Below, in pieces: positions 5,917 through 64,000 of a DNA stretch of 64,000 bases. Position 1 is the stretch's first letter. Every line of letters begins with the position of its first letter. The stretch is from Planctomycetota bacterium (GTDB lineage: Bacteria; Planctomycetota; Phycisphaerae; SM23-33; FEN-1343): contig JAAYZK010000249.1 in assembly GCA_012514895.1 (NCBI GenBank), positions 24,217 to 88,216 on the forward strand. Direction: 5' to 3'. Under the pieces are notes generated by a model. The model was not told where the DNA came from, ran no database searches, and worked only from the letters and a program-made list of their open reading frames with translations. The translations under genes were made by a program, and so were the position numbers.

Positions 5917-5936
5917 CCGCAGGAGGACACCCCCGC

Positions 5937-7814: not shown

Positions 7815-7815
7815 C

Positions 7816-8667: not shown

Positions 8668-8674
8668 GGCCGCC

Positions 8675-18971: not shown

Positions 18972-19263
18972 CGCCGGCCGTCCGCATCGGCTCGGGCGCT
19001 CGGGCCGACCCGGCACACCCGGGAAGCGCCAGGGCCGGAGGTCCCATGGGAAATCGGCTTGCCTGGCCGCCGAAGCGCGGTAGAATAACCGGCGAACACT
19101 GCCGTGGCGCCAGCACAGAACTGATCGGGGAGATCCTGGATCCCGGCCGCGCCTCCGCGGGATGGGGCGTGCCGACATGTTGCCGCGTGACCGAGGAAGC
19201 GACATGCCCGGACCGCTTCGAGACCGGCGGCCGGCGGATCGATCCCCGTGCAGAGGTGCGACC

Positions 19264-44704: not shown

Positions 44705-44781
44705 CGGCGAGTTCTTACAGGTCCGCCGGCGGTCGGATCCCCGGCGGGCGGGAGTGCCAGATGCTCATGCAGGAGATCGCA

Positions 44782-46245: not shown

Positions 46246-46330
46246 GAGCCGGGCGTTGGGACCGGGTGTGTGTGTTCGGCCGCGGCTTGACGCTCGAGCG
46301 GAGATGGCGGGTAGCGTTCCGGTGGAAGCG

Positions 46331-47032
46331 ATGAAGACGACCAACCGCAAGGCATTCACGCTGCTGGAGGTCATCCTGGCGATCAGCCTGGTGCTGGGCG
46401 TCATGGCGGCGGCCTTCCGGTTCTTCCAGTACGTGGCCGCGACGCGCGAGGCGATCGGCGAGCACATGCGGCTGCAGCGGACGGTCCGCGGGGTGATGGA
46501 TCGCCTGACGGTCGAACTGAATGCTGCGATCGGCCGCCCGATGATGGAGGACCGCGTGCTGTGGCTGTCGGACACGCTGGCCTTCCAGACCACCGTGGTG
46601 CCGGGTGCGGCGGCGTGGGCCGATCCGGGACTCGCCGGCGCGCCCGTCCCGCCGGTGCACGACGTCGTCCTGGTCAGCTATGCCCTCCGCACCGGCGAAG
46701 ACGACGCCGGCGGGCAGGTGATCGAGGGGCTGGAACGGACGGCCCTGACGGCGCCGCCGCTGGCGCCGGCCGACGAGACGCCGGCGTTCCAGTCGTCGGT
46801 GCTGCTGGCCGATTGCGTCCGGTTCGTCCGCTTCCGTTACTGGGCGGGCCGCGATGCCGGGGGCATCACCGACGACGGCTGGGTGACCGAATGGACGCAG
46901 ACGGCCGCACCGGCGGCCGTGGAGATCACCCTGGGCCGCGAAGCCCTGCCCGAGGGCATGGACGCCGAGGAGTACCTGGACCGCTACGAGACCTTCCGGC
47001 GGGTCGTGGATGTGCCCGCCGGGCGGGAGTGA
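46331..47032 (+). CDS. Minor pseudopilin (GspJ-like)
   Basis: NRKAFTLLEVILAISLVLGVMAAAF prepilin-type N-terminus; about 230 aa. ATG 46304 is an alternative start. Confidence 0.55.
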   Translation: MKTTNRKAFTLLEVILAISLVLGVMAAAFRFFQYVAATREAIGEHMRLQRTVRGVMDRLTVELNAAIGRPMMEDRVLWLSDTLAFQTTVVPGAAAWADPGLAGAPVPPVHDVVLVSYALRTGEDDAGGQVIEGLERTALTAPPLAPADETPAFQSSVLLADCVRFVRFRYWAGRDAGGITDDGWVTEWTQTAAPAAVEITLGREALPEGMDAEEYLDRYETFRRVVDVPAGRE

Positions 47033-50197: not shown

Positions 50198-51297
50198 TGA
50201 ACCGACGCGAGAAACTGCTCATGATCGCCATCGGCAGCGCCATCGGCCTGGCCGTCGTGTACGGCCTGGTGAACAGCCTGCTGCTCAAGCCCCGGGCCGC
50301 GCTGCACCGGAGCATCGCCGAACGCGGCAAGGAACTGACCGAACTCCAGGGCAAGGCCGGCCGCGAGATCCGCTTCCGGGAGCAGCACGAGGACTTCCTC
50401 AAGCGGACGTACCTGGGCGGTTACGACCCGGACGGCAAGGCCACCCAGGAAGCCGCCCAACGCCGCCTCAAGGCCCTGGCCCTGGCGGCGGGCCTCGAGG
50501 AGAAGACCCTCGACATCCGCCCGCAGTCGATCGGCCGCGAGGGCATCAAGCACGGCTTCCTCCACGTGGGGCTGACCGCGACGGTGAACGGCAGCCTCCA
50601 GGCGGTCACGGATTTCCTCTACCTGCTGCGGGCCGAGCCGGTGCCGCATCGCATCGAAAGCCTGCGGCTGCGTCCGGACCTGGCGGCGGGGCAGGTGGAG
50701 GTGTGGCTGCGGTACACGACGCTGGCGATGCTTCCGCCCTCCGGCGATCCGCCGTCGGCGGCGACGCGCCCGACCACGCAGCCGCGACCCGTCCCGCCGC
50801 TGGACGATCCGGCCCGCCGGGCCTTCGACGCGATCGCCTCGCGGGACCTGTTCCGCCCGTTCGTGGCCAGGCCCGCACCGACGCCGCCCCCGACGCCGGT
50901 GGGCAGGAACGACCCGCCCAGGCACCAGCCGCCGCCCTCGACGGACCAGTACTACCGGATCGTGGGCCTCTCGACGTGGTCGGGCGACGCGGCCGACGCG
51001 GTGATCGTGGTCACCGACAGCCGCACCCGTCACACCGCCGAGCATCTCGTCGGCGACAAGCTGGGCGACGGGACGATCGCCTGCGTGGACTATCGCCCCC
51101 TGCCGACGCCGGGGGACCCGGAGATCCTCAGTCCCAGCCGCGCGATCCTGAAGATCGGCGAGCGCTACTACGCGGTCGAACTGGGGCAAACCCTTGCCGA
51201 GAAACGCGTTCTGACGGAAAGCGACCTTCCCGACACCCTGCGGGACGGGGTGGGTGCGGCCGATTCGGCCGAAACTTCCCCCGCCCAGGCGGGTTAG
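50197..51297 (+). CDS. PilO/GspM-like bitopic protein with C-terminal PilP/GspC-HR-like domain
   Basis: N-terminal TM helix LLMIAIGSAIGLAVVYGLV plus a coiled region. Pro-rich linker. SRDLFRPF motif, then YRIVGLSTW...AVIVVTD...LVGDKLGDGTIACVDYR...ILKIGERYYAVELGQTL. TGATG overlap with the preceding gene. Confidence 0.5.
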   Translation: MNRREKLLMIAIGSAIGLAVVYGLVNSLLLKPRAALHRSIAERGKELTELQGKAGREIRFREQHEDFLKRTYLGGYDPDGKATQEAAQRRLKALALAAGLEEKTLDIRPQSIGREGIKHGFLHVGLTATVNGSLQAVTDFLYLLRAEPVPHRIESLRLRPDLAAGQVEVWLRYTTLAMLPPSGDPPSAATRPTTQPRPVPPLDDPARRAFDAIASRDLFRPFVARPAPTPPPTPVGRNDPPRHQPPPSTDQYYRIVGLSTWSGDAADAVIVVTDSRTRHTAEHLVGDKLGDGTIACVDYRPLPTPGDPEILSPSRAILKIGERYYAVELGQTLAEKRVLTESDLPDTLRDGVGAADSAETSPAQAG

Positions 51298-51380
51298 ACC
51301 GTATAAGCGCCCGGTGCGCCGGTGGTCTGTCCTGACCGGCCGCCGGTGATGGACGTTGCCGCACTGTGAGGAGAAGTTGC

Positions 51381-54300
51381 ATGTGGTTGAAGCGCACGAT
51401 CGTGAGCGTCCTGGTGGTCCTCATGCTGGCGGCCGCCTGGCAGGTCGTCACGGCGGTGGACGTCCAGGCGCAGGAAGCGCCCGCCGAGGCGTTGCCGGAC
51501 TGGGAGGCCGAGGCGCGGCAGTTGGAGGAGATCCGTCGTGCGCGTGCCAACCAGCGTGAGGAGGTCCAGGACGAAGGTCCGACCGAGCCGCCCGTGGAGG
51601 AGCCGGCCGGCGAGGAGCCCGGCGAGCCTGAGCAGCCCCAGGCGCCTCAGCCGCCGCAGGGCCGTCCGGCGGTGGTCCGGCCGGCGCTGACGCGGCCGTC
51701 TTCGCGGCCGTCCTCGCCGGCGCGTGCGGCGACGCCCGCCCCGCGGCCGATGCCCGCGTCGACCCCGCCGCCCGTCGAGGCCGCCGGGCCCGGCGGCGAC
51801 GACCGGCCCGTGATCTACCTGCAGTACCAGGACGTCCCGATCACCTCGGTCGTCCGCCGGTTCAGCCAGGCGGCCGGCAAGCCGCTCATCGGCGACTACA
51901 ACGTCGACGGGACGATCACGTTCTTCGACAGCCAGCCCTACACCCTCAAGGAGGCGATGGACGTCATCAACATCCTCCTGGGGATGCGCAACTACTACCT
52001 GGTCGAGGATGGGCGGTTCCTGCGGCTGGTCACCCTGGACGACAGCGTCGGCGCGCCCTGGCCCATCCAGGCGGGGCTGGACAGCACCGAGGGTCTTCGC
52101 GACGAGCAACTGGTGACGGTGCTGCTGCCGCTGAGGTACCTGGACGCCAAGGAAGCGGGCGACCTGGTCGTGCGGATGGTCAGCTCGTTCGGCTCGATCG
52201 CGCCGCTGGCCAAGAGCAAGGGGCTGCTGATCACCGACCGGCTGTCGAACATCCGCCGCGTCGCCGGGTTCCTCAAGCTGGTGGACACCGTCGAGACGAC
52301 CGAAGACGCGCAGATGGAGATCGTCGAGCTCACCACCGCCAAGGCCGGCGACGTCGCGGCGGTGATCGACAACCTCTGGGGTCCGGCCGCGGCGCCGCGG
52401 CGGACGGTGTACGACGAGCGGACCCGCCGCAACGTCGCCCAGCCCCCCGATCCCCGCGACATCATCCGCACCAGCCATGACGACCGGACGAACATCCTGG
52501 TCATCTCGGGCGACCCGGCCAAGCTGAAGCTGGCCAGGCAGATGATCGAACGGCTGGACACGCCCAACGGGGCCGCCGGGGGCGAGTTCCGCATCTACGA
52601 GCTGAAGCACGCCAACGCCGAGGAACTGGCCGCCACCATCAACCAGACGCTGGGGTCGCCGGTCGACCCCCGCCGCCGCCTGCCCGGCCTGCCCGGCGCC
52701 GGGGACGGACCGCGCGTCACCGCCGACGCCGCGACCAACCGGCTGATCGTCTCGGCGGCGGTCGACAAGATGGCGGAGATCCAGCGGCTGATCGAATCGC
52801 TGGACGAGGCCCGCGCCGAGGGCACGGGGTGGCGGGTGGTCAAACTCGCCCACGCCGACGCCCCGCAGATGGCCGCGATCGTCACGGAGGCCACGCGGAA
52901 GCGCGACGCCCGCGGGCGGGTGATCTCCACCGTCAGCGTGTCGGCCGATCCGGCCACCAACACGCTGATCATCGCCGGCTCGGCCGGCGATCTCGACGCC
53001 GCCGCGGTGCTCATCGGGCAACTGGACGTGAGCGGCGCCTCCGAGACGCTGGAGGTCCGGGTCGTCCGCATCGACAACGGCGACGTGCGGACGCTGGCGC
53101 GGAGCCTCTCGATGGTCCTGGCCGACAGCTCGCCCGGCGCCGCCGGGCCCGGCCGTCGCCTTCCCCCGCAGTTGACCGGCGGGCGGATCCGCATCGAGGC
53201 CGACCCGGTCAGTTCCACGCTGATCATCGCCGCGCCGGCCGGGGAGTGGCCCCGGATCGAGCAGGTGCTGGCGGGCCTGGAATCGGCGACCGCCTCGACG
53301 GAGATGTCGACGCAGTTGATTCCGCTGAAGCACGCGGCGGCCGACGAGATGGCCGCGACGCTCCGCCAGGTCTTCGGCCCGGCGATGCGGCGGGGCGGCG
53401 TGCCGGCGATGGCCTCGCCGGTGCAGATCGCCCCCAGCCGCCAGGCCAACGCGCTGCTGGTGTCCGGCTCGCCGGACGAGATCGCCCGGGTGGCCGAGCT
53501 GGTCGCCCAACTGGACGTGGCTGAAGCGGGGGCGGCCGATCCGGTCGCGATGATCCAGTTGACCGCCGCCGACGCCAACGAGGTGGCCGTCGCGCTGAAG
53601 TCGATGCTGCCCCCGCCGGCGCGCGGGCAGCAGCAGAGCGTCTTCATCGCCGCCGATCCCAAGTCGAACATGGTGATGCTGCGGGCCCCGGCCGCCGAGC
53701 GCGAGCAGCTCGAGGCGATGATCGCCCGGCTGGACCAGGCGACCAGCGGCACGGCCCGGGAGACGCGGATCCACCCGCTGAAGCACGTTTCAGCGTCGGA
53801 CCTGGCGCCGATGCTGACGGATCTGTACGCTTCTTCGCCGGCCGACCCGCGCTCCGGCGGGCGGATGCGCATGCCCTCCCTGGCCGGCGGGGACAACCGC
53901 GTCGTGATCACGCCGGCCCCGGGCGACCGGGCGCTGGTGATCGACGCGCCGGCCGGCCGGATCGAGCCGATCCTGCAGCTCGTCGCGTCGCTGGACGTCG
54001 AGTCGGGCGGGGCGGCGGCGCTGCTGCCCCGCAGCTACAGCCTCCAGGTCGCCGACGCGGCGGAGCTGGCCCGGTCGCTGGCGCGGCTGTTCGCCGAGCA
54101 GCAGCAGCGCCTCCCGCGCAGCCCGATGGCGCCGGTCGCCGGCGGGGGCGAACCCCAGCCCCGGTTCGAGGCCGAACGCCGCACCAACACGCTGCTGGTG
54201 GCGGCGACGGCCGAGCAGTACCCCGTGATCGAGCAGCTCATCGCCTCGCTGGACGCCGGCGCCGAGCCGATCGAGGTGACCAAGGTCTTCCCGCTGCAGC

Positions 54301-57300
54301 ACGCCGACGCCGAGGAACTGTCCGAGCTGCTCCGAACGATGCTCGACGCCGCCCCGGCGGCGATGGGCCCCGGCGGCCGCGGCGGACCGCAGTTGCGGCT
54401 GCCCGGCGACAGCTCGGTCCGCGTGGCGGCGCAGGCGTCGACCAACAGCGTGATCGTGCAGGGCCCGCCCGAGAAGCTGGCCCTGGCGGCCGAGCTGGTC
54501 GCGCAGTTCGACGTCGCCGAGGCCGGCCAGCGGACGGTGATCGAGATCGTCGCGTTGCAGAACGCCCAGGCCGCCAGCCTGGCCGAGGCGGTCACCGCGT
54601 CGCTGGCGGCCCAGCAGGGCCCCTCCGCGCCCGGCCGGCGCGGGCCGGCGCCGGCCGGCGACCGCAGGCTGGTCACCGTCACCGCCGAGCCGAACTCCAA
54701 CAGCGTGCTCATCCGCGGCCCGGCGGCCGAGGTGCCGGCGGTGGTGGAGATGATCCGCCGCCTGGACGGGTCGGGCAACTCGACGACCCCGCGGCTGAAG
54801 ACCTACCAGCTCCAGCACAACGACGCCGACGACGTGGCCGACCAGCTCGGCACGCTGTTCCGCGACATGATCAAGCAGATGCCCGCGGCCGCGACCCGCC
54901 GGGGCGGGCCGGCGCCGCAGGTGCCCTTCAGCATCAGCGCCGACGGGCGGACCAACTCGCTGATCGTCTCGACGACCGACGCGTACTTCGCCATGTTCGA
55001 GGAACTGCTCGGCCAGCTCGAACAGCCGATGACCAGCGACCGCGAGGTCCACTACATCCCGCTGGTCAACGCCGACGCGTACGACCTGGCCGACTACCTC
55101 CGCACGATGTTTCCCGAGAAGGGGCCCAGCGCGCCGATCATCGAGAGCGACCTGTTCAGCAACTCGCTGACGATCATCGCCAAGGAACTCGATTTCCGCC
55201 GGATGGAGCCGATCATCCAGGAGTTCGACCGCGTCGCGACGGTGACGGTCCGGGTGATCCCGGCGGCGGCGCTGAAGGCCGAGGAGCTGGCCGAGCAGTT
55301 GCGGCGGATCTACCCGCAGGTGTCCGACAGCCAGCTGGAAGTGGTCCAGGAGCTTCCGGCGCGGAACGGCCGGGAGGCCACGGCGACGCCGGTCGTGCCC
55401 GACGCGAACATCCGCCCGGCCGGCGACACGCACGGGCAGACGGTCCCGGCGGCCCCGAACGACCCGATGCACCCGCCGGTGCTCATCGCGATCGACAAGG
55501 TCACCAACTCGCTGATCGTCTCGGGCACCGCCAAGGAACTGGACACGATCGAGGACCTGATCAGCCAGTTGTCGCTGGGGGCGCAGAACGCCGAGGAGGA
55601 GTTCGGCTGGTTCGAGATCAAGCAGGCCGACCCCGAGTCGGTCGCCGCCACGCTCAACGCGCTGTTCAACCCCGCGGCGGCGGCGCGGGCCCAGGCCCGC
55701 CCGCAGCCCCAGCAGCGGCCGGGCGGCCAGGACGACGGGGACGACGATCGCCAGGCCTCCCGCCAGCGCCAGCCCCAGGCCCCGCCGGCGCCGCTGCCCC
55801 GCATCGCCGTCGTCGCCGACGCGCGGACCCGCCACGTGATCGTGCGGGCCAAGCAGGCCGAGCTGGACGACATCGCCCTGATCATCGAGAGGCTCGACCA
55901 GGTGACCACCGTCGTGACGGAGGTGCGGACCTTCCCGCTGAAGAACACCGACGCGACGGAAGTGGCCGAGAACCTCCAGGAGCTGTTTCGCATCTCCTCC
56001 CGCCGCCCCGCCGCCCCCGTGCGGCCGGGCCAGCCCACGCTGGCCCGCGCCGAGGCGGTCCGCCAGATGCTCGAGATGGAAGGCCCCGACGGCCCGATCC
56101 AGGTCGACGCCACCAGCATGGTCGCCATCGCGGCCAACCGGACGACCAACAGCATCGTCGTGTCCGCCCCGGCCGACGCGATGAAGGTGATCGCCGGGAT
56201 CGTCCAGGAGCTCGACCAGTCCGCCGGGGAGACGACGCGCCCCGTGGTGCGCCTGTACCCGGTGGGCGGGGGGGACCTGGACAGCCTCGCCCAGACGATC
56301 CAGACGATCTTCGCCGACGCCGCCGGCCGCACGCCCCGCGGCCCCGGCGGCCGCGCGGCCGCGGCGCCTCAGCAGGCGCCGGTCATCGTGACCGCCGACC
56401 AGGCCGGGCAGGTGCTCATCGTCTCGGCCTCGGCCGACCAGCATGAACTGATCGCCAAGGTCCTCGCCGACGTCCAGGCCGCCCAGGCGACCGCCGGGGC
56501 GGCCCTCGTGCGGGTCTACAAGATCCGCTACGCCGACGCCACCCAGATCGCCAATGCCGTCCAGGGAACCTTCGACCCCTCGTCGCCCGCCCGCCCCGGC
56601 CGCCGGGGTCCGGGCGCCCCCGCCGCCGGCGCGGCGCTGCGGGTGACGGCCGACACCAGCAGCAACTCGGTCGTCATCAGCGCCGTCGCCGAGGAGCACG
56701 AGCGGATCGCCGCGATCATCGCCGAGATGGACACCCCTCCCGGCGGCGAATCGCTGGTACGGGCCATCCCGCTGGCCAGCGCCGACGCCCAGGCGACCGC
56801 CCAGGTGCTCACCCGCGTGTTCGCACCCCAGCAGGGCGGCCGCCGCTCGGCCGCCGCTTCGGTGGTCATCGAGGGCAACCGCGACTCGCGGACGCTGCTG
56901 GTCCGCGCCGATGACGAGACCTTCCAGCGGATCCGCGCGATGGCCGAGCAGTTGGACACCACGACCGCCTCGGAGACGGTCGGCGTGTTCATTCTGCCGC
57001 TGACCCGCGCCAAGGCGGCGCAGATGGCCCAGCGCATCACGGACCTGCACGGCCAGCAGGTCGCCGCGGCCCGGCGGGGCAACACGACGGTCGAGCCGAT
57101 CGCGGTGACCGCCGACGAGCGGGCCAACGCCCTGGTCCTGGCCTGCACCGCCGAACAGTTCGAGCAGGTCAGCCAGTGGGTCAACCAGATCGAGGAGATG
57201 AATCCCCGCCGGGGCGAGCCGCGGATCCTCAAGCTGCAGTATGCCGACCCGGAAGAGGTGGAGCAGGCGATCCGCCAGCTCTTCGGCGGGTCAGCCCCGC

Positions 57301-60300
57301 CCCGCGGCGGCGCCGCCGGCGGCGACCTGCCGTTCGAGATGACCGTCCTGCCCAACCAGCGACAACTGCTCATCGAGGCGTCCGACGAGGACTGGGAGAT
57401 GATCCGCCAGTTGGTCGAGACGCTCGACACGGCCGCCGCGGCGGCCAAGCCGGAGATGCGGCTGTTCGTGCTCAAGCACGCCAACCCCTCCCGCATCGCC
57501 CAGTCGCTCAACCAGATGTTCCAGCGGCTCGCCCGCACCGGCCGCCCCGAGGACGCGGTGACGGTCACCGCCCTGGAGCAGACCAACTCGATCGTCGTCG
57601 CCGGCTCGACCGGGCGGATCGAGGACGCCGCCCGCCTGATCGAACAGCTCGACACCGAGACGGTCAGCCCGGAGGTGCAGTTCAGGATCTACCCTTTGGA
57701 GCACGCCCAGCCCTCCAAGGTGATCGGCCTGCTGGACACGATGCTCCGGGAGTACCGCCGGGCCAACCCCGACCAGCCGGTGGGGCTGGTGGCCGATGAG
57801 CCCACCCGGTCGATTGTCGTGACCGGGCGGCCCAAGGCGTTCGAGGAGATCGAGAAGATCCTCGCGGCCCTGGACGTCGAACCGGCCACGCCGGCGACCG
57901 AGGTGCGGATCCTCCCGCTGATGAAGGCCGAGGCCGGCCCGCTGGCCGAGGTGCTCAACGAGATGCTCCGCCCCAGCCGCGAAGGCCAGGTCACCCCCGA
58001 AGCCCGGGCCCTCCAGGAGCAGGTCCGGCGGCTGAAGGTCGTGGGGCCGGACGGCAAGGCGGTGCCCGAGCTGGACCTGACCCGCCCGATCAAGATCAGC
58101 GCCGACCCCGCCGGCGGCGGGGGGCGCGGCTCCAACGCGCTGATCCTCTCGTCGACGCCGGAGAACGTCGCGGCCCTGGCGGCGGTCGTGGCGATCATGG
58201 ACACGGTGCCCATCAGCGAGACGGTCGTGGTGAAGATCGAGCATCTCCGGCACGCCGACGCCGCCAGCGTCCTGGAGGTGCTGCGGGAGATCTTCACCGA
58301 GGGCGCCAAGCAGCTTGCCGGCACGCCCGGCGGGCCGGTGGCCGGACGCGCCCAGCCGGCGACCCAGCCGGGGCGCGGGCTGGTCAAGCCCCTGAACGTC
58401 TCGGCCGACCCCCGCACCAACACGCTGATCCTCAGCGGCGCGCCCGACACGCTCGAACTGGCCTCCCGCGTCATCGCCGACCTGGACCAGGAAGCCTCCG
58501 GCGTGGCCACGGAGGTCCGCCTGTTCCCGCTGCAGTACGCCGACGCCGTCCGCCTGGCCGACGTGCTGGAAGCGGTCTTCGCCGAGGAGGAAGGGCGCGG
58601 CGGGGACGCGGCGGCCGAGGGCGTGCGGACGCACGCGACCCGACTGGTCCGCACGATGCCCGGCGGGGAACAGTTGGCGACGCAGTTTCCCCGCACCCGC
58701 GCGGCGCTGACGATCGAGGCCGACGAGGCCACCAACACGCTGATCGTCGCCGCCCGGCGGGACATGATGCCCCTCATCGCCGACGTGATCGCCTCGATGG
58801 ACATCCCCGGGGCCGGGGCGATGAACGGGGTGCGGATCGTCCCGCTGACCCACGCCAACGCCGGCACGATGGCCGAGATGCTGCAGGACCTGTTCGACCG
58901 GCGCTACGAGGCGGCCAGGACCGAGGACCTCCAGCGGCAGAAGCCCATCATCCTGCCGGAGGTGCGGACCAACTGCCTGCTGGTGGTCGCCAACGCCAGC
59001 GACAGCCAGGTGCTGGCAGACCTGCTGGCGAAACTCGACGTCAAGCCCGTCAACCCCTCGGTGCACCTGGCGGTGCTGGCCCTGGCGCACAACGACGCCG
59101 GCGTCGTCGCACCCGTGATCGAGGACATCTTCGAAGCCCGCCGCGACGCCATGACCCCCCAGGGCACCCAGCCGGCCCCGCAGGACCAGGTGAGCGTCGA
59201 GATCGACGCGCTGAACAACGCCCTGATCGTCGCGGCCAGCGCCGAGAACCTCGAGCTGATCCGCGAGCTGCTGGCCAAGGTCGACATCGAGCCGACGGCC
59301 GTCGAGGGCATCGTGAGGCTCTACCCGCTGATCAACGCCGACGCCCAGCGGATCGCCGAACTGCTCGAGTCGCTCGTCAGCGACGGGCTGTACAAGCCCG
59401 GTATCGCCGTTGCCGGCGACAGCGACCTGATCGAGGCCCGCGAGAAGGTCTCTATCGTCGCCGACCTGCGGACCAACGTGCTGGTCGTCTCGGCGTCGCG
59501 GGAGAACTTCGCGGTGATCGAGAAGATCATCGCCCAGCTCGACGCCGCCGACGGGTACGGGCTGCTGGGCGGCGTGCGCCTCTACACGCTGAAGACCGCC
59601 GACGCCGAGACGCTGGCCCAGACGCTCAAGGACTTCTTCGACTCCAAGCGCAGCAGCGAAGAGGCCACCGGCGGCGTCGCCCGTTCGCTGGAGGTGACCA
59701 TCGTCCCCGATGCGCGGACCAACACGCTGCTGGTCGCCGGCGGGCGGGAGTGCTTCGCCGAGATCGAGGCGATGATCGCCCGGCTCGACGCTGACGGGAC
59801 GCCCCGCGGGACGGCGCCGACGGTCTTCCCGCTGCGCAAGGCCCGGGCGGCCCAGGTCGTCGACTCCATCACGCAGCTGTACGAGAGCCAGGGCGGGCTG
59901 GAGAAGATCGGGCTGTCGATCAGCGCCGACGAGCGGACCAACGCCGTCATCCTCAGCGGCGGGGCCGCCGACATCGAGCGGATCGGGCAGATCATCGAGA
60001 AGCTCGACGCCGGCAACGTGACCCACGTGATGGAGATCCGCGTGATCCCGCTGCGGCAGGCCGACGCGACGGAACTGGCCGATCTGCTGGACACGACACT
60101 GACGACGGCGCCCCGGTCGCCCAACGGCGATGACGCGGCCCTCCAGGCGATGATGCAGTTCATCCGCCATCTGCCCGGCGGCGAGCAGGTCGTCAGCCGC
60201 GCCCTGCAGGAGGGCGTCGTGATCGCCCCCGACGCGCGGGCCAACGCCCTGGTCGTCGTGGCGGCGGCCGACGCGATGAACCTTCTGACCCATCTCATCG

Positions 60301-61868
60301 AGGCCCTCGACTCGGTGGCCACCCCGGCCGCCCAGATCCGGATGTTCCGCCTGGCCAACGCCGACGCCGCCCAGATGGCCACGGTGCTCAGCGAGCTGTT
60401 CCGCCTGGAGAACGCCGCCGGCGACCCCAAGGCTGCCAGCTACACGCTGACGACGGCCGACGGCGGGGCGGGCGGCGCGAGCGTCACGATGGACACGGCG
60501 GCCAAGGCGTCGCTGACGGTGACGGTCGACACGCGGACCAACACGCTGCTGCTGGGCGGGTCCCAGCAGTACGTCCAGATGGCCGCCGAGGTGATCGCCG
60601 AACTGGACAACGACCCCGGGCTGGAGCGCGTGCCGGTGGTCTACCGGCTGCGCAACGCCAAGGCGACCGACATCGAGGATGCGGTCCGCCAGTGGCTCGA
60701 CGACGAGCGCCAGCGGATCATCGACGCGATGGGCGGGGACGCCGGGGCCGTCCCGCGCCTGATGGAGCAGGAGGTGTCGGTCGTGGCGGTCACCAGCACC
60801 ACCACCATCGGCGAGACGGAGATCGAAACGTCCAACACGCTGCTGATCGCCGCCAGCCAGCGGTACCTCAACACGATCCTGTCGATGATCGACCAGCTCG
60901 ATCAGCCCCAGCCCCAGGTGCACATCAGCGTCATCATGGCCGCCGTCAGGCTCGACGAGACGATGCAGTTGGGGTTCGATTGGGACCTGCAGATGGGGTT
61001 CGAGTGGGACACCGAGAACGTGCTGAACGCCGGAACGTTCCTCGGCACGGTCGGCCAGAACGGCTTCCTGAACGGCGGGCTGAACCTCGCCGTGACGGGC
61101 GGGGACGTGAAGTTCTTCCTCCAGGCGCTGCAGAGCAAGGGCAACCTGGAGGTGATCGCGCGGCCGACGATCACGGCGATGGACAACCACCTGGCGATGA
61201 TCAACATCGCCGAGCGGGTGCCTTACCTGACCAACACGCGGATCACCGACAGCGGGGCCGTCATCAACTCCATCGACTACGAAGAGGTCGGCGTGATCCT
61301 CGAGGTGACCCCGCGGATCAGCCCCGACGGGTTCATCCTGATGGACGTGAAGCCGGAACTCAGTTCGCAGTCCGGGACGTCGCTGGACCTGGGCGGGGGG
61401 GCCTCCTCGCCGATCTTCAGCCAGCGGACGGCCAGCACCACGGTGTCGGTGCGGGACGGGCAGTCCATCGTCATTGGCGGGCTGATCGACACCTCCAAGG
61501 ACAGGATCGAGACGAAGATTCCGCTGCTGGGCGACATCCCCGTGCTGGGACGGCTGTTCCGCCGGACCGTCGACGAGGACCGGCGGACGGAGTTCCTGAT
61601 GATCCTGACGCCGCGGATCATCCGCAACGACGTCGACGCGCAGGACCTGACCCGCCGGGAGATCGGCCAGACCCACCTGTGCCCCGAGTCGCTGGCGCCG
61701 TTCAACCAGGCGCTGCTGGGCGACCAGACCGGCGAGGGCGGGCCGAGCCTTCCGGCCAACACGCCGGCGACGCTGGATGGCGGCGTCGCGCCGCGATCGG
61801 TCCGCATCCCCATGGAGCGTGCCGAGCCGCTGGGCCCGCACGTGACCGTCATCGGAGGTGCACGGTGA
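51381..61868 (+). CDS. gspD: Giant secretin (GspD/PilQ family), ~3,495 aa: signal, Pro/Glu-rich spacer, N0-like domain, ~34 Secretin_N-like modules, secretin beta-barrel domain
   Basis: ATG 51381 is preceded by GAGGAG. The C-terminus carries canonical secretin blocks (NLEVIARPTITAMDNHLAMINIAERVPY...YEEVGVILEVTPRISPDG...VSVRDGQSIVIGGLI...IPLLGDIPVLGRLFR...FLMILTPRII). Upstream is a long series of modules ending in ...ADxRTNxLhVxA....LIxxLD. Uninterrupted strong GC3 frame. Confidence 0.9.
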   Translation: MWLKRTIVSVLVVLMLAAAWQVVTAVDVQAQEAPAEALPDWEAEARQLEEIRRARANQREEVQDEGPTEPPVEEPAGEEPGEPEQPQAPQPPQGRPAVVRPALTRPSSRPSSPARAATPAPRPMPASTPPPVEAAGPGGDDRPVIYLQYQDVPITSVVRRFSQAAGKPLIGDYNVDGTITFFDSQPYTLKEAMDVINILLGMRNYYLVEDGRFLRLVTLDDSVGAPWPIQAGLDSTEGLRDEQLVTVLLPLRYLDAKEAGDLVVRMVSSFGSIAPLAKSKGLLITDRLSNIRRVAGFLKLVDTVETTEDAQMEIVELTTAKAGDVAAVIDNLWGPAAAPRRTVYDERTRRNVAQPPDPRDIIRTSHDDRTNILVISGDPAKLKLARQMIERLDTPNGAAGGEFRIYELKHANAEELAATINQTLGSPVDPRRRLPGLPGAGDGPRVTADAATNRLIVSAAVDKMAEIQRLIESLDEARAEGTGWRVVKLAHADAPQMAAIVTEATRKRDARGRVISTVSVSADPATNTLIIAGSAGDLDAAAVLIGQLDVSGASETLEVRVVRIDNGDVRTLARSLSMVLADSSPGAAGPGRRLPPQLTGGRIRIEADPVSSTLIIAAPAGEWPRIEQVLAGLESATASTEMSTQLIPLKHAAADEMAATLRQVFGPAMRRGGVPAMASPVQIAPSRQANALLVSGSPDEIARVAELVAQLDVAEAGAADPVAMIQLTAADANEVAVALKSMLPPPARGQQQSVFIAADPKSNMVMLRAPAAEREQLEAMIARLDQATSGTARETRIHPLKHVSASDLAPMLTDLYASSPADPRSGGRMRMPSLAGGDNRVVITPAPGDRALVIDAPAGRIEPILQLVASLDVESGGAAALLPRSYSLQVADAAELARSLARLFAEQQQRLPRSPMAPVAGGGEPQPRFEAERRTNTLLVAATAEQYPVIEQLIASLDAGAEPIEVTKVFPLQHADAEELSELLRTMLDAAPAAMGPGGRGGPQLRLPGDSSVRVAAQASTNSVIVQGPPEKLALAAELVAQFDVAEAGQRTVIEIVALQNAQAASLAEAVTASLAAQQGPSAPGRRGPAPAGDRRLVTVTAEPNSNSVLIRGPAAEVPAVVEMIRRLDGSGNSTTPRLKTYQLQHNDADDVADQLGTLFRDMIKQMPAAATRRGGPAPQVPFSISADGRTNSLIVSTTDAYFAMFEELLGQLEQPMTSDREVHYIPLVNADAYDLADYLRTMFPEKGPSAPIIESDLFSNSLTIIAKELDFRRMEPIIQEFDRVATVTVRVIPAAALKAEELAEQLRRIYPQVSDSQLEVVQELPARNGREATATPVVPDANIRPAGDTHGQTVPAAPNDPMHPPVLIAIDKVTNSLIVSGTAKELDTIEDLISQLSLGAQNAEEEFGWFEIKQADPESVAATLNALFNPAAAARAQARPQPQQRPGGQDDGDDDRQASRQRQPQAPPAPLPRIAVVADARTRHVIVRAKQAELDDIALIIERLDQVTTVVTEVRTFPLKNTDATEVAENLQELFRISSRRPAAPVRPGQPTLARAEAVRQMLEMEGPDGPIQVDATSMVAIAANRTTNSIVVSAPADAMKVIAGIVQELDQSAGETTRPVVRLYPVGGGDLDSLAQTIQTIFADAAGRTPRGPGGRAAAAPQQAPVIVTADQAGQVLIVSASADQHELIAKVLADVQAAQATAGAALVRVYKIRYADATQIANAVQGTFDPSSPARPGRRGPGAPAAGAALRVTADTSSNSVVISAVAEEHERIAAIIAEMDTPPGGESLVRAIPLASADAQATAQVLTRVFAPQQGGRRSAAASVVIEGNRDSRTLLVRADDETFQRIRAMAEQLDTTTASETVGVFILPLTRAKAAQMAQRITDLHGQQVAAARRGNTTVEPIAVTADERANALVLACTAEQFEQVSQWVNQIEEMNPRRGEPRILKLQYADPEEVEQAIRQLFGGSAPPRGGAAGGDLPFEMTVLPNQRQLLIEASDEDWEMIRQLVETLDTAAAAAKPEMRLFVLKHANPSRIAQSLNQMFQRLARTGRPEDAVTVTALEQTNSIVVAGSTGRIEDAARLIEQLDTETVSPEVQFRIYPLEHAQPSKVIGLLDTMLREYRRANPDQPVGLVADEPTRSIVVTGRPKAFEEIEKILAALDVEPATPATEVRILPLMKAEAGPLAEVLNEMLRPSREGQVTPEARALQEQVRRLKVVGPDGKAVPELDLTRPIKISADPAGGGGRGSNALILSSTPENVAALAAVVAIMDTVPISETVVVKIEHLRHADAASVLEVLREIFTEGAKQLAGTPGGPVAGRAQPATQPGRGLVKPLNVSADPRTNTLILSGAPDTLELASRVIADLDQEASGVATEVRLFPLQYADAVRLADVLEAVFAEEEGRGGDAAAEGVRTHATRLVRTMPGGEQLATQFPRTRAALTIEADEATNTLIVAARRDMMPLIADVIASMDIPGAGAMNGVRIVPLTHANAGTMAEMLQDLFDRRYEAARTEDLQRQKPIILPEVRTNCLLVVANASDSQVLADLLAKLDVKPVNPSVHLAVLALAHNDAGVVAPVIEDIFEARRDAMTPQGTQPAPQDQVSVEIDALNNALIVAASAENLELIRELLAKVDIEPTAVEGIVRLYPLINADAQRIAELLESLVSDGLYKPGIAVAGDSDLIEAREKVSIVADLRTNVLVVSASRENFAVIEKIIAQLDAADGYGLLGGVRLYTLKTADAETLAQTLKDFFDSKRSSEEATGGVARSLEVTIVPDARTNTLLVAGGRECFAEIEAMIARLDADGTPRGTAPTVFPLRKARAAQVVDSITQLYESQGGLEKIGLSISADERTNAVILSGGAADIERIGQIIEKLDAGNVTHVMEIRVIPLRQADATELADLLDTTLTTAPRSPNGDDAALQAMMQFIRHLPGGEQVVSRALQEGVVIAPDARANALVVVAAADAMNLLTHLIEALDSVATPAAQIRMFRLANADAAQMATVLSELFRLENAAGDPKAASYTLTTADGGAGGASVTMDTAAKASLTVTVDTRTNTLLLGGSQQYVQMAAEVIAELDNDPGLERVPVVYRLRNAKATDIEDAVRQWLDDERQRIIDAMGGDAGAVPRLMEQEVSVVAVTSTTTIGETEIETSNTLLIAASQRYLNTILSMIDQLDQPQPQVHISVIMAAVRLDETMQLGFDWDLQMGFEWDTENVLNAGTFLGTVGQNGFLNGGLNLAVTGGDVKFFLQALQSKGNLEVIARPTITAMDNHLAMINIAERVPYLTNTRITDSGAVINSIDYEEVGVILEVTPRISPDGFILMDVKPELSSQSGTSLDLGGGASSPIFSQRTASTTVSVRDGQSIVIGGLIDTSKDRIETKIPLLGDIPVLGRLFRRTVDEDRRTEFLMILTPRIIRNDVDAQDLTRREIGQTHLCPESLAPFNQALLGDQTGEGGPSLPANTPATLDGGVAPRSVRIPMERAEPLGPHVTVIGGAR
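52110..60915 (+). repeat. Protein-level tandem array of about 34 diverged Secretin_N-type (N1-N3-like) modules inside the giant secretin
   Basis: By-eye segmentation of the translation gives modules of about 70-115 aa. Each has hRhhxLxxA(D/N)A...L...hF, a variable Pro/Gly/Arg-rich loop, hxhxADxxTNxLhhxA and hxxLhxxLD. Examples: ATNRLIVSA, RTNTLLVAA, STNSVIVQG, RTNSLIVST, TTNSIVVSA, RTNTLILSG, RTNVLVVSA, RTNAVILSG. The DNA copies are not near-identical. Confidence 0.8.
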
Positions 61869-62359
61869 GGCGAGGACTGATGCTCATCCTGGCCGCGCTG
61901 GCGGCGGTGCCGGCCGGCTGCGGAGGGCCGATCCTGCGCGGCGCCGGCGGCGCCGGCCCGGCCGCCGACCAGGTCACGCTGTGGGCGGCGCCCCTGGCGG
62001 AGGACGCCGACGGCCGCTCGGGCACGGACGGCGTCTCAGTGCGCCTGATCTTCTACGACGTCGCCCCTGGGGGAAAGACCGAGGCGGTGGTCGTCCGCCA
62101 GGGGGTGGATCTGGCGATGTACGAGGGCGACCTCCGCGGCCGCCGCCTGGACGACGCCGAGCCGTTCCACGTCTGGCAGGTGACCGGCGAGCAGCTTGCG
62201 GCCTTCCGCTCGGCCTACTATGGCCTGCGCTGCTACGCCCTGACGCTCTACTGGCCCGGCCATCGCCCCGCCAGCGGCACCGTCACCCTCGTCGCACGCT
62301 ACCAGAACGAAAACGGACGCCTCCTGCAGTCCCAGCCGGCCGTGATCAGGATCCGCTGA
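61865..62359 (+). CDS. Small lipoprotein downstream of the secretin (candidate pilotin or accessory)
   Basis: GTG 61865 overlaps the secretin stop (GTGA), with GGAGG 7 nt upstream. Lipobox LAALAAVPAGC. About 164 aa with no recognisable family. Confidence 0.6.
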   Translation: MRRGLMLILAALAAVPAGCGGPILRGAGGAGPAADQVTLWAAPLAEDADGRSGTDGVSVRLIFYDVAPGGKTEAVVVRQGVDLAMYEGDLRGRRLDDAEPFHVWQVTGEQLAAFRSAYYGLRCYALTLYWPGHRPASGTVTLVARYQNENGRLLQSQPAVIRIR

Positions 62360-62410: not shown

Positions 62411-62439
62411 TTGAACACTGCGGGGCATTGTGCTATGCT
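62411..62439 (+). promoter_or_regulatory. Candidate sigma70-type promoter (TTGAAC-17-TATGCT) for the aconitase-family gene
   Basis: TTGAAC at 62411-62416, a 17-nt spacer, TATGCT at 62434-62439. AAGGAG at 62457-62462 lies 7 nt before ATG 62470. Confidence 0.4.
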
Positions 62440-62469
62440 TCCCGCTTTGGCGACCGAAGGAGTACCCCC

Positions 62470-64000
62470 ATGGCGCAGACGTTGGCACAGAAGATTCTCG
62501 CGGCCCACCTGGTGGAAGGGACGATGACCCCCGGCAGCGAGATCGGGCTGCGGATCGACCAGACGATCACCCAGGACGCGACCGGCACGACGGCGTTCCT
62601 GCTGTTCGAGGCGATGGACATCCCCCGTGTCCGCACCGAGGTGTCCGTCAGTTACGTCGACCACAACATGGCCCAGTTCGGGCCCGAGAACCACAACGAC
62701 CATCTCTACCTGGCGTCGATCGCCGCCAAGGTGGGCGCCTACCACAGCCGTCCGGGAAACGGCATCTGCCACCAGGTGCACCTGGAGCGGTTCGCCCGCC
62801 CCGGCGCGACGCAACTGGGCAGCGATTCGCACACGCCGACCGCCGGCGGGATCGGCGCGATCGCCATCGGCGCCGGCGGGCTGGACGTCGCCGTCGCGAT
62901 GGGGGGCGGGACGTTCTACACGCCCTGCCCGCGGATCATCGGCGTGGAACTGAAAGGGCGCCTGTCGCCCTGGGTGGCCTCCAAGGACATCATCCTGCGC
63001 CTGCTGAGCATCCTGACGACCAAGGGCAACGTCGGCTGCCTGGTGGAGTACTTCGGCGACGGCGTCGCGACGCTGAACGTCCCGGCCCGCAGCACGTGCA
63101 CGAACATGGGCGCCGAACTGGGCGTGACGACCAGCGTGTTCCCCTCCGACGACGTCACCCGCCAGTTCATGGTCGCCCAGGGCCGCCAGGACCAATGGAC
63201 CGCCCTGGCCGCCGACGCAGGGGCCGCTTACGACCGCATCGCCAAGCGCCTGCACCCCAAGACCGACGCGGCCGTGATCGAGAACATCCGGCGGTACTGC
63301 ACCGACGTGAAGGTCTCGGCGCCCGACGCCTCGGGCAAGGTCGAGGTGAGCTTCGGCCGCATCGTGATCGACCTGGGCGAGCTGGAGCCGCTGGCCGCGG
63401 CCCCCGGATCGCCCGACCACGTCGTGACCGTCGCGTCCCTGGCCGGCACGAAGGTCGACCAGGTGCTCCTGGGCTCCTGCACCAACAGCAGTTACCAGGA
63501 CCTGGTGACCTGCGCGGCCGTCATGAAGGGCAGGACCGTCCATCCGGACGTGGAACTGGGCATTCACCCCGGCAGCCGCCAGGTGCTGGCGATGCTCCAG
63601 CGCGGCGGGGCCCTGGGCGACCTGGTCGCCTGCGGGGCGCGGATCCTCGAAAGCGCCTGCGGCGCCTGCATCGGCCAGGGCTTCAGCCCCGGCGACGGGC
63701 GGGTGAGCCTGCGAACGTTCAACCGCAACTTCACCGGCCGCAGCGGCACGCCCGACGATCAGGTCTACCTTGTCAGCCCGCAGACCGCCATCGCCGCGGC
63801 GGTGACCGGGCGGATCACCGACCCCCGCACGCTGAGCGAGACGCTCGGCATCCCGTGCCCGACGGTCGCGGCGCCCGAGGCGTTCGTGATCGACGACCGG
63901 ATGATCAACCCCCCGGCCGACGATCCGGCCGCCGTCCAGGTCGTCCGCGGCTCGACCATCGTCAAGCCGCCGTCCGGTGAGCCGGTCCCCGCGTCGATCG
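62470..64000 (+). CDS. Aconitase-family hydratase (aconitate hydratase-like), 3' end outside the window
   Basis: My own translation from ATG 62470 is open to the window end. It reads MAQTLAQKILAAHLVEG...IDQTITQDATG...GNGICHQVHLE...LGSDSHTPTAGG...LLGSCTNSSYQD...CGACIGQG...RTFNRNFTGRSG, which covers the Fe-S cluster Cys motifs. It is absent from the ORF track because there is no stop in the window. Confidence 0.85.
   Translation, partial: MAQTLAQKILAAHLVEGTMTPGSEIGLRIDQTITQDATGTTAFLLFEAMDIPRVRTEVSVSYVDHNMAQFGPENHNDHLYLASIAAKVGAYHSRPGNGICHQVHLERFARPGATQLGSDSHTPTAGGIGAIAIGAGGLDVAVAMGGGTFYTPCPRIIGVELKGRLSPWVASKDIILRLLSILTTKGNVGCLVEYFGDGVATLNVPARSTCTNMGAELGVTTSVFPSDDVTRQFMVAQGRQDQWTALAADAGAAYDRIAKRLHPKTDAAVIENIRRYCTDVKVSAPDASGKVEVSFGRIVIDLGELEPLAAAPGSPDHVVTVASLAGTKVDQVLLGSCTNSSYQDLVTCAAVMKGRTVHPDVELGIHPGSRQVLAMLQRGGALGDLVACGARILESACGACIGQGFSPGDGRVSLRTFNRNFTGRSGTPDDQVYLVSPQTAIAAAVTGRITDPRTLSETLGIPCPTVAAPEAFVIDDRMINPPADDPAAVQVVRGSTIVKPPSGEPVPASI

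What the first reader, a model, noticed from the sequence alone, without database searches (positions are those of the whole stretch)
51381..61868. Giant ~3,500-aa secretin with about 34 tandem N-domain ring modules
Seen: a single uninterrupted ORF of about 3,495 codons closes the T2SS/T4P-like operon. Its last ~320 residues are a canonical secretin barrel. After a signal peptide and a Pro/Glu-rich spacer comes one N0-like domain (VIYLQYQDVPITSVVRRFSQAAGKPLIG...). I then count about 34 consecutive modules with the Secretin_N pattern (...L.hA.A..hA..L...F, loop, h.h.AD..TN.LhV.A......I..LI..LD). Established: characterised GspD/PilQ/InvG secretins are roughly 550-750 aa with 2-4 such ring-forming N domains, each adding a few nm of periplasmic vestibule. 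Inference: a stack of about 34 rings would give a conduit on the order of 100 nm. That is far longer than an ordinary periplasm. It could span an enlarged planctomycetal periplasm or project beyond the outer membrane. The modules are strongly diverged at DNA and protein level, so this looks like an old, maintained architecture rather than recent amplification or repeat misassembly. I know of no characterised secretin of this design.
Basis: partly seen in the sequence, partly recalled or inferred. Interest (0 to 1): 0.92.

Follow-up and report, generated by a model that had tools for sequence, protein, structure and literature searches.

The report
Giant 34-ring type II secretin
This is a real 3,495-residue outer-membrane pore protein of a type II secretion system with 34 copies of the ring-forming domain instead of the usual three; it belongs to a large family in Planctomycetota and Verrucomicrobiota that I found described in no paper, and it probably builds a tube about 100 nm long across an unusually wide periplasm.

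Summary
Window 51381..61868 (+) is one uninterrupted gene. It encodes a signal peptide, a Pro/Glu-rich spacer, a GspD-type N0 domain, 34 Secretin_N modules (33 strong, one diverged N1) and a C-terminal secretin barrel. It follows a complete T2SS operon (GspE-F-G-H-I-J-K-L-M').

It is not a misassembly. An independently assembled Planctomycetales MAG has a collinear 3,498-aa orthologue (80% identity, same module count). The modules are only about 27% identical to each other.

An exhaustive search shows a large family. The best 150 hits include 127 complete proteins (each representing one 50%-identity cluster) with 14-57 modules (median 36). Those checked sit in the same operon, in Phycisphaerae, other Planctomycetota and Limisphaerales (Verrucomicrobiota).

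Three new facts emerged:
- Inter-module linkers are 9-11 residues in 82% of 5,255 cases, the same spacing as in ordinary GspDs.
- Modules keep positional identity and a loop-length "barcode" across distant members.
- A PilO-like GspM with an extra beta domain, and a small downstream lipoprotein, accompany the gene in every other locus where I looked for each.

The roughly 100-150 nm stacked-ring conduit remains an inference. I found no paper describing such secretins. The verdict is a new variant of a known kind, of high interest.

The parts
51381..61868 (+). giant GspD-type secretin gene, 3,495 aa (mature about 369 kDa, pI 4.8)
   Evidence: single ORF; uniform GC3 frame; ATG with GGAGA upstream; Pfam and NCBIfam hits; molecular weight
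51381..51473 (+). Sec-type signal peptide (MWLKRTIVSVLVVLMLAAAWQVVTAVDVQAQ)
   Evidence: read directly from the sequence; conserved in the L001 orthologue; no signal-peptide predictor was available
51474..51806 (+). Pro/Glu/Ala-rich low-complexity spacer, the least conserved part (60% identity to L001, 28 gap columns in the first 200 alignment columns)
51807..52055 (+). GspD-type N0 domain
   Evidence: PF21305 E 1.8e-7 (whole protein) and 1.1e-8 (N-terminal fragment)
52146..52316 (+). diverged first Secretin_N module (N1-like)
   Evidence: PF03958 E 1.2e-5, 25.8 bits when scanned alone; missed by the self-built profile
52317..60902 (+). 33 tandem Secretin_N modules of 60-108 aa, separated by linkers of 7-12 aa; long-loop triplets at modules 13-15, 23-25 and 31-33
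60933..61640 (+). secretin beta-barrel and gate domain
   Evidence: PF00263 E 6e-49; AF2 model pLDDT mostly 80-97 in the barrel; Foldseek top hits are T2SS GspD cryo-EM structures; PDB sequence hits
61641..61865 (+). C-terminal tail of about 75 aa, low confidence, no family match
61880..62359 (+). conserved 159-aa lipoprotein (lipobox PAGC) immediately downstream; candidate pilotin or accessory protein
   Evidence: 32% identity and E 9e-19 to the gene in the same position in L005; no Pfam family
50197..51297 (+). GspM'/PilO-like protein, 366 aa: TM helix and PilO fold, Pro-rich linker, conserved C-terminal beta domain of unknown family
   Evidence: weak T2SSM hits; AF2 pLDDT 83.5; Foldseek to PilO 3jc8_O/2rjz and to Amuc_1100; the C-terminal domain has no match; precedes the giant GspD in L005-L007, directly in L005 and L007 and with one called minus-strand gene between in L006
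48554..50197 (+). GspL-like protein (PilM_2 cytoplasmic domain, TM helix, periplasmic domain), 547 aa
   Evidence: sequence
47038..48540 (+). GspK minor pseudopilin, about 500 aa
   Evidence: T2SSK_1st E 6.6e-13; start re-called
45242..47032 (+). minor pseudopilins GspH (about 45242-45847), GspI (45844-46245) and GspJ (about 46331-47032)
   Evidence: GspH, N_methyl and T2SSJ hits; prepilin motifs in the sequences; starts
44761..45252 (+). GspG major pseudopilin, 163 aa (the mechanical ORF 44754..45137 is in the wrong frame)
   Evidence: T2SSG E 8e-18, N_methyl E 4e-7; frame analysis
43514..44704 (+). GspF platform protein, about 396 aa (tentative TTG start)
   Evidence: T2SSF E 5e-50; start
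41838..43508 (+). GspE ATPase with MshEN N-domain, 556 aa; first gene of the operon
   Evidence: T2SSE E 3.5e-140, MshEN E 3e-22; start; a divergent minus-strand gene lies upstream

Best explanation
The gene encodes the outer-membrane secretin (GspD) of a complete type II secretion system in a bacterium of the PVC group. The closest genome is an uncultured Planctomycetales MAG, and the closest named relatives are Phycisphaerae.

Shown: it is one full-length gene under purifying selection. It has a signal peptide, N0, 34 ring-type (beta-alpha-beta-beta-alpha) Secretin_N modules and a canonical GspD-like barrel. It is an ordinary member of a large family with 14-57 modules, and in all four other loci examined the gene sits in the same operon.

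Inferred: like every solved secretin, it assembles as a ring of about 12-16 protomers. Each module layer forms one periplasmic ring. The rings stack through 10-residue linkers, exactly as N1-N2-N3 do in ordinary GspD. That would give a closed tube of roughly 100-150 nm and about 5.5 MDa (for a 15-mer) hanging from the outer membrane. N0 at the far end would dock on the inner-membrane platform (GspL and the PilO-like GspM', whose extra C-terminal beta domain may play the part of GspC/PilP). The GspG pseudopilus, tipped by GspH-I-J-K, would polymerise inside the tube and push substrates out. The tube would let the machine bridge the unusually wide, variable periplasm of PVC cells, with module number set per lineage by block insertions and deletions.
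For: Gene reality:
- A uniform GC3 frame across the gene.
- Pfam and NCBIfam hits.
- An independent orthologue of 3,498 aa, 80% identical, collinear, with 33+1 modules and dN/dS about 0.35 throughout.
- No near-identical DNA repeats.

T2SS identity:
- The operon GspE/F/G/H/I/J/K/L/M'.
- TIGR02517 is the best NCBIfam model.
- The AF2 model of the last 609 aa matches GspD cryo-EM structures 5zdh, 5wq7 and 5wq8 at E 1e-31 to 1e-29. The PDB sequence search also ranks GspDs first.

Family:
- 3,245 representatives at E<=1e-30; nearly all of the best 150 are 3,000-5,500 aa.
- 127 complete proteins with 14-57 modules.
- The same operon with GspDs of 5,277, 5,812 and 4,967 aa in L005, L006 and L007.

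Regular stacking:
- 82% of 5,255 inter-module gaps are 9-11 aa, with the mode at 10.
- Ordinary GspDs of about 510-860 aa show the same 9-10 aa spacing. The N rings of characterised GspDs are known to stack.

Defined architecture:
- Positional orthology of modules and a conserved loop-length barcode hold across members only about 35% identical.

The secretin alone takes up the variable distance:
- GspM' stays at 360-371 aa while GspD varies from 3,495 to 5,812 aa.

Precedent:
- T. thermophilus PilQ has six stacked rings and is 350 A long. Its authors say the rings let it span a wide periplasm (PMC5745081).
- Planctomycetes have an enlarged periplasm (PMC5394234).
Against: - No multimer prediction or experiment was possible, so ring formation by modules 1-31 is unproven.
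- The AF2 monomer gives no reliable inter-module geometry (TM 0.4 and rmsd about 13 A to GspD chains).
- No GspC was recognised. The proposed N0-binding role of the GspM' C-terminal domain has no sequence or structural support.
- A 100-nm piston stroke is far beyond what is described for T2SS pseudopili.
- The periplasm width of the source organism is unknown.
- The family also occurs in Verrucomicrobiota, where an enlarged periplasm is less well established.
- dN/dS of 0.35 is only moderate constraint.
Confidence: 0.6

Rival explanations
1. Flexible tether rather than a closed tube. Only the last few modules next to the barrel form rings. The rest is a beads-on-a-string leash, or a partly ordered, accordion-like assembly, that keeps the outer-membrane pore connected to an inner-membrane platform at a variable distance.
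For: In T. thermophilus PilQ the rings are loosely coupled, with gaps of about 20 A, unresolved linkers and rocking motions (PMC5745081). The N-terminal half of the array is less conserved (72-80% identity) than the C-terminal half (83-90%). The planctomycete inner membrane is dynamic and invaginated.
Against: The very tight 9-11 aa linker distribution matches that of ordinary GspDs. The position-specific module identity and loop-length barcode fit a defined rigid architecture better than an interchangeable leash. Every module keeps the full Secretin_N signature.
Confidence: 0.2
2. Same stacked-ring secretin, but the machine's main product is not secreted proteins. It is a sheath or nozzle for a long fibre or an exopolymer, for example the pili-like fibres that emerge from planctomycetal crateriform structures, or slime.
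For: Secretins of the GspD/PilQ family form slime nozzles in cyanobacteria and myxobacteria (PMC12475490). In Planctomycetes, 12-nm fibres arise from crateriform structures that connect the outer and inner membranes and whose composition is unknown (PMC5394234). GspG can in principle polymerise to any length.
Against: The operon is a textbook T2SS with GspH-I-J-K tip pseudopilins and has no retraction ATPase. No polysaccharide-export genes are in the operon. The source organism was never imaged. Crateriform structures were described where the inner membrane is held close to the wall, not 100 nm away.
Confidence: 0.13
3. The N-module array is mainly a periplasmic scaffold or binding platform, for example for peptidoglycan, periplasmic enzymes or substrates, or internal gates. 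It may fold back on itself or form a wider cage, so the complex is much shorter than 100 nm.
For: Conserved long-loop triplets at fixed positions (modules 13-15, 23-25, 31-33) suggest position-specific functions. Weak KH-domain hits reflect the generic fold of the module.
Against: A 10-aa linker leaves little room for anything but adjacent packing. No other domain types are present. No solved secretin has folded-back N domains.
Confidence: 0.05
4. Assembly artefact, pseudogene or fused ORF that is not made as one protein.
For: Long chance ORFs do occur in this 72% GC DNA, for example antisense ORFs of 1,516 and 1,086 aa. Close relatives are often broken at contig ends.
Against: Coding signal is uniform across the gene. 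An independent collinear orthologue exists. There are 127 complete family members with signal peptide, N0 and barrel. The DNA repeats are diverged. The gene is under purifying selection.
Confidence: 0.02

Closest known systems
Canonical T2SS secretin GspD (E. coli K12 5WQ7, ETEC 5ZDH, V. cholerae 5WQ8, K. pneumoniae PulD 6HCG)
   Same: N0 domain, Secretin_N ring modules with 9-10 aa spacing, and a double beta-barrel secretin domain. Encoded with GspE-M. These are the best sequence, profile and structure matches.
   Different: 35 periplasmic domains instead of 4, and 3,495 aa instead of about 650. No recognisable S-domain and no separate GspC. The partner GspM carries an extra C-terminal domain, and a conserved unrelated lipoprotein lies downstream.
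Thermus thermophilus PilQ (757 aa; six stacked rings N0-N5; 350 A long)
   Same: Extra beta-alpha-beta-beta-alpha N rings lengthen the periplasmic tube. Its authors say this spans a wide periplasm, and they call it one of the largest secretin systems characterised (PMC5745081).
   Different: It is a T4P/DNA-uptake secretin with 5 such rings, against 34 here and up to 57 in the family. It has 17-residue linkers in places. There is no T2SS operon.
Akkermansia Amuc_1098-1102 type IV pilus-like cluster (PVC)
   Same: A PVC-lineage secretin (NF042912 hit at E 4e-27, far below its cut-off). The PilO-like Amuc_1100 structure matches the N-terminal half of GspM'.
   Different: Its secretin model is of ordinary length (805 positions). 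It is a different system, T4P-like rather than T2SS with GspH-K.
Mid-sized multi-module GspDs of 1,070-1,210 aa with 5-8 modules in metagenomes
   Same: The same N0 + Secretin_N array + Secretin architecture. This suggests a continuum of ring numbers.
   Different: Four to seven times fewer modules, and only 25-28% identity to the window protein.

Membership tests
Secretin superfamily | C-terminal secretin domain (PF00263) forming the gated beta-barrel | tested here: met
   PF00263 E 6e-49 over the full model 1-169; AF2 barrel with pLDDT 80-97; Foldseek E about 1e-31 to GspD structures
Secretin superfamily | periplasmic N-terminal ring-building (Secretin_N, beta-alpha-beta-beta-alpha) domains | tested here: met
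   32 Pfam stretches; 33 modules with the self-built profile plus one diverged N1; beta-alpha-beta-beta-alpha secondary structure in the AF2 model
Secretin superfamily | Sec signal peptide for export to the periplasm | tested here: met
   n-h-c region read directly from the sequence and conserved in L001; no dedicated predictor was available
Secretin superfamily | homo-oligomer of 12-16 subunits forming an outer-membrane channel | not testable with these tools
   no multimer prediction or experiment was available
T2SS GspD (TIGR02517) | score above the equivalog cut-off, and the best among secretin subfamily models | tested here: met
   1474 bits against a cut-off of 351; PilQ 431, SctC 371. 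The total is inflated by the repeats, but the best stretch covers model positions 124-600.
T2SS GspD (TIGR02517) | GspD-type N0 domain | tested here: met
   PF21305, 31.3 bits against a cut-off of 27; 35.3 bits on the N-terminal fragment
T2SS GspD (TIGR02517) | encoded with T2SS core genes (GspE, F, G, H, I, J, K, L, M) | tested here: met
   the same order in L005, L006 and L007
T2SS GspD (TIGR02517) | N0-N1-N2-N3 periplasmic architecture (four domains) | tested here: not met
   N0 plus 34 modules. This is the point of departure from the family.
T2SS GspD (TIGR02517) | GspC (HR domain) partner binding N0 | tested here: inconclusive
   No GspC gene or Pfam hit in the operon. The GspM' C-terminal beta domain is a candidate but has no match to PilP or GspC.
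T2SS GspD (TIGR02517) | pilotin or S-domain targeting | tested here: inconclusive
   The C-terminal tail has no family hit. A conserved downstream lipoprotein has no known family.
T4aP PilQ | AMIN domain(s) at the N-terminus and a pilMNOPQ context | tested here: not met
   No AMIN (PF11741) hit. The context is GspE-M with GspH/I/J/K. The PilQ model scores lower than GspD.

The most novel reading that the evidence does not exclude
The giant secretins are the periplasm-spanning core of a so far unassigned PVC envelope structure. One candidate is the "press-stud" connections between outer and cytoplasmic membrane at crateriform structures, from which fibres emerge. In this reading the module number acts as a genetically encoded ruler that sets local periplasm width (about 45 to 170 nm for 14-57 modules, at my recalled value of about 3 nm per ring). 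The conserved long-loop triplets would form internal gates or side-entry stations along the tube.
Probability: 0.15. Interest if true: 0.93.

Novelty: new variant of a known kind. Interest (0 to 1): 0.82.

Why it matters
Secretins are textbook channels with two to four periplasmic rings. The record among characterised ones is six rings and 35 nm.

A conserved family with 30-57 rings implies secretion tubes of 100 nm or more and over 5 MDa. That challenges the piston model of type II secretion: how does a pseudopilus work over 100 nm, and where do substrates enter?

It also gives a concrete molecular handle on two open questions. One is how PVC bacteria connect their two membranes across an enlarged periplasm. 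The other is what the unexplained envelope complexes of Planctomycetes are made of.

The family also offers a natural series of ring numbers, with position-specific modules, for structural and evolutionary study of repeat-built nanotubes.

Tried and rejected
- A whole-protein search in the 5.8-billion-protein index timed out. Shorter queries listed no protein longer than about 1,220 aa, so the giant relatives did not appear there. The exhaustive representative search was needed to see the family.
- The closest C-terminal hits looked like normal-sized secretins, but the two I checked are fragments cut at contig ends.
- Three mechanical ORFs are wrong-frame artefacts of high GC: 40341..41339 (a possible GspC position), 44754..45137 ("GspG") and 62430..63980 (downstream). 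The real genes were found by frame-specific GC3.
- I tested whether the GspM' C-terminal domain is PilP/GspC-HR-like. Pfam on the fragment, a PDB profile search and Foldseek of the whole model gave nothing for that domain. The question is unresolved, not refuted.
- Recent tandem amplification or repeat misassembly is rejected.
- Ten literature searches found no description of multi-module or giant secretins. The library lacks most subscription journals, so prior description cannot be excluded.
- The terminator and promoter scan after the operon found nothing. Rfam found nothing in the window.
Full report
**1. The observation**

The window is about 72% G+C, so long chance ORFs are common. The antisense strand of this very gene carries ORFs of 1,516 and 1,086 codons. 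ORF length alone is therefore not evidence of a gene.

The + strand ORF 51366..61868 is nevertheless coding throughout. In every 300-nt window across it, G+C at the third codon position is 0.88-1.00 in one and the same frame. The real start is ATG 51381, preceded by GGAGA about 7 nt upstream.

Pfam finds three families:
- Secretin_N (PF03958) at E = 0, 1154 bits, in 32 stretches.
- Secretin (PF00263) over the whole model at residues 3254-3420.
- GspD N0 (PF21305) at residues 153-219.

A profile built iteratively from the protein itself finds 33 back-to-back modules from residue 318 to 3179. The stretch 261-317 is a diverged N1-type module (PF03958 E 1.2e-5 when scanned alone). The count of 34 is therefore confirmed. 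Residue numbers here count from the GTG at 51366; subtract 5 for the ATG start.

**2. Not an artefact**

- At the DNA level the modules share only short motifs of 60-80% identity. There is no long repeat that could mislead an assembler.
- At the protein level the modules are 27% identical on average and 41% at most. Neighbouring modules are no more alike than distant ones.
- A GTDB genome (uncultured Planctomycetales MAG, contig CAZHRW010000075.1, locus L001) carries a 3,498-aa ORF. It aligns end to end with 80% identity and only 58 gap columns.
- That orthologue has the same 33 strong modules, and every module is the reciprocal best match of the module at the same position.
- Nei-Gojobori dN/dS is about 0.35 in every tenth of the gene.
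- Flanking genes match the window where I looked: a 365-aa ORF sits just upstream of the L001 secretin, in the position of the window's GspM' (I did not compare the two sequences), and a lipoprotein and then an aconitase-family gene lie downstream.

**3. Context**

Frame-specific GC3 showed that several mechanical ORFs are in the wrong frame. The corrected operon is as follows:

| Gene | Coordinates | Note |
|---|---|---|
| GspE | 41838-43508 | MshEN + T2SSE |
| GspF | 43514-44704 | tentative TTG start |
| GspG | 44761-45252 | T2SSG E 8e-18 |
| GspH | about 45242-45847 | |
| GspI | 45844-46245 | |
| GspJ | about 46331-47032 | |
| GspK | 47038-48540 | |
| GspL-like | 48554-50197 | PilM_2 domain |
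| GspM-like (GspM') | 50197-51297 | 366 aa |
| giant GspD | 51381-61868 | 3,495 aa |
| lipoprotein | 61880-62359 | 159 aa |

Upstream of GspE lies a divergent minus-strand gene, so the operon starts at GspE. No separate GspC gene is present.

NCBIfam ranks the GspD equivalog first (1474 bits), ahead of PilQ and SctC. There is no AMIN domain.

An AF2 model of the last 609 residues has mean pLDDT 76, with the barrel mostly above 85. It shows three beta-alpha-beta-beta-alpha modules and a secretin barrel. Its best Foldseek matches are the cryo-EM structures of T2SS GspD: 5zdh, 5wq7, 5wq8, 6i1y and 6hcg, at E 1e-31 to 5e-29. A sequence search of the PDB gives the same ranking.

**4. A family, not a one-off**

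An exhaustive HMMER search used the last 1,199 residues against 1.84 billion representatives. It returned 3,245 proteins at E <= 1e-30, and nearly all of the best 150 are 3,000-5,500 aa long.

I counted modules with the same profile. Among these hits, 127 proteins are complete, each with an N-terminal signal-like sequence, N0 spacing and a barrel. They have 14-57 modules, with a median of 36. The window protein is thus an average member of the family.

Where I looked at context, the operon is the same E-F-G-H-I-J-K-L-M'-D:
- L005: GspD of 5,277 aa.
- L006: 5,812 aa, in a Phycisphaerae MAG.
- L007: 4,967 aa.

Source names are only automatic: "secretin N-terminal domain-containing protein" or "type II secretion system protein D". 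The named taxa are Planctomycetota, Phycisphaerae and, for a 3,212-aa member seen on a 2.7-Mb contig, Limisphaerales/Verrucomicrobiota.

The two closest short hits I checked are fragments cut at contig ends. Complete secretins with 5-8 modules also exist, so ring number looks like a continuum with a heavy mode around 35.

**5. New structural regularities**

(a) Linker length. Of 5,255 gaps between consecutive modules in the family, 2,819 are exactly 10 residues and 82% are 9-11. Ordinary GspDs of about 510-860 aa, measured the same way, give 9-10. The giant's modules are therefore spaced like N1-N2-N3, whose stacking as rings is established by the cryo-EM structures cited above.

(b) Positional identity. 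The modules within one protein are as diverged as 27%. Even so, each has a recognisable orthologue at the corresponding position in proteins only about 35% identical overall. The differences in number are block insertions or deletions. For example, window modules 6-17 match modules 14-25 of a 57-module protein, 19-25 match 40-46, 26-29 match 49-52, and 30-33 match 54-57.

(c) Loop-length "barcode". Long-loop triplets (85-108 aa, and up to 159 aa elsewhere in the family) sit at window modules 13-15, 23-25 and 31-33. The exact run of lengths ...65 64 99 85 95 69 72 76 71 63 91 90 89 recurs in distant members.

Together these facts argue for an ancient, defined, non-interchangeable architecture.

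**6. Partners**

The GspM-like protein is twice the usual length. AF2 gives mean pLDDT 83.5. The model has three parts:
- an N-terminal TM helix, coiled coil and ferredoxin-like domain, which matches PilO (3jc8_O, 2rjz) and Akkermansia Amuc_1100;
- a Pro-rich linker;
- a confident C-terminal beta domain that is highly conserved in 37 homologues.

The beta domain has no Pfam or PDB match. I suspect it is the functional counterpart of the GspC-HR/PilP domain that binds N0, but this is untested.

The length of this protein stays at 360-371 aa while the secretin varies from 3,495 to 5,812 aa. This suggests that the secretin alone absorbs the variable distance.

The downstream lipoprotein is conserved in the distant locus L005 (32% identity, E 9e-19) and has no known family. 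It is a candidate pilotin.

**7. Mechanism**

Shown: a full-length, selected, GspD-type secretin with 35 periplasmic domains sits in a complete T2SS operon.

Inferred: it oligomerises like other secretins, and each module layer forms a ring.

The tube length depends on the rise per ring:
- The T. thermophilus PilQ complex (six rings plus secretin) is 350 A long (PMC5745081). If I allow about 100 A for the secretin and cap (my own assumption), that is roughly 40 A per ring including gaps, and 35 rings give about 150 nm.
- At the tighter value of about 30 A per ring that I recall for GspD (my recollection, not checked here), they give about 110 nm.

A 15-mer would weigh 5.5 MDa. The T. thermophilus authors state that the six rings let PilQ span a wide periplasm. 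Planctomycetes have an enlarged periplasm and unexplained outer-to-inner-membrane connections (PMC5394234).

The most economical reading is a periplasm-spanning tube. The GspG pseudopilus would grow inside it. I put this at about 0.6.

The rivals are:
- a flexible tether in which only the last few modules form rings (0.2);
- the same tube used for a fibre or exopolymer rather than for proteins (0.13; secretin slime nozzles are a precedent, PMC12475490);
- a folded-back scaffold (0.05);
- an artefact (0.02).

**8. Novelty**

Ten full-text searches found nothing on giant or multi-module secretins. The proteins sit in public databases under generic automatic names.

It passes all the testable defining features of a secretin and of GspD, except the four-domain periplasmic architecture. 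I therefore file it as a new variant of a known kind, not as categorically new. The library lacks most subscription journals, so prior description cannot be excluded.

Noticed in passing
window 61880-62359 (+); L005 25834-26349; L001 about 12175-12660: A small lipoprotein (159-171 aa, lipobox) is encoded directly after the giant secretin in the window and in both distant relatives examined. It is 32% identical at E 9e-19 between the window and L005, and has no Pfam family. It is a possible new pilotin or accessory family.
   Followed up: partly
window 50197-51297 (+), residues about 250-330: The PilO/GspM-like protein carries a conserved, confidently predicted C-terminal beta domain behind a Pro-rich linker. 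The domain has no Pfam or PDB sequence match. The protein precedes a giant GspD in every other locus examined (L005, L006, L007).
   Followed up: partly
window 52317-60902 (modules 13-15, 23-25, 31-33): Module lengths form a barcode conserved across members about 35% identical. Triplets of long-loop modules sit at fixed positions. Several loops share a motif like h-R-x-h-P-G-G-E-Q. They may be internal gates or docking sites.
   Followed up: partly
window 2-2215, 5508-7814, 7777-9616 (+): There is a second secretion-ATPase locus. It has a T2SSE-family ATPase with an N-terminal FHA domain (5508-7814), downstream of a Ser/Thr protein kinase fragment (2-2215), followed by two ORFs of about 300 aa that I did not analyse. 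It may be a phospho-regulated Tad/T4P-like system.
   Followed up: no
window 40341-41339, 44754-45137, 62430-63980 (+): These mechanical ORFs are wrong-frame products of the high G+C. The real genes are a minus-strand secreted protein (40254 to about 41567, 437 aa, no family), GspG (44761-45252) and an aconitase-family gene (about 62470 to beyond 64000).
   Followed up: yes
window 19084-21714 (+): An 876-aa protein has an RTX calcium-binding repeat and a Beta_propel (PF09826) domain (E 2e-121). Nearby are GH123-like, GH31, fucose-isomerase-like and amidohydrolase genes. These are possible secreted or glycan-degrading cargo, but I did not test any link.
   Followed up: no
P0355 (cluster of P0195), 3,212 aa: A giant secretin with 21 profile-detected modules is annotated from Limisphaerales/Verrucomicrobiota MAGs. 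It was seen on dozens of contigs, one of them 2.74 Mb. The family is therefore PVC-wide rather than confined to Planctomycetota.
   Followed up: partly
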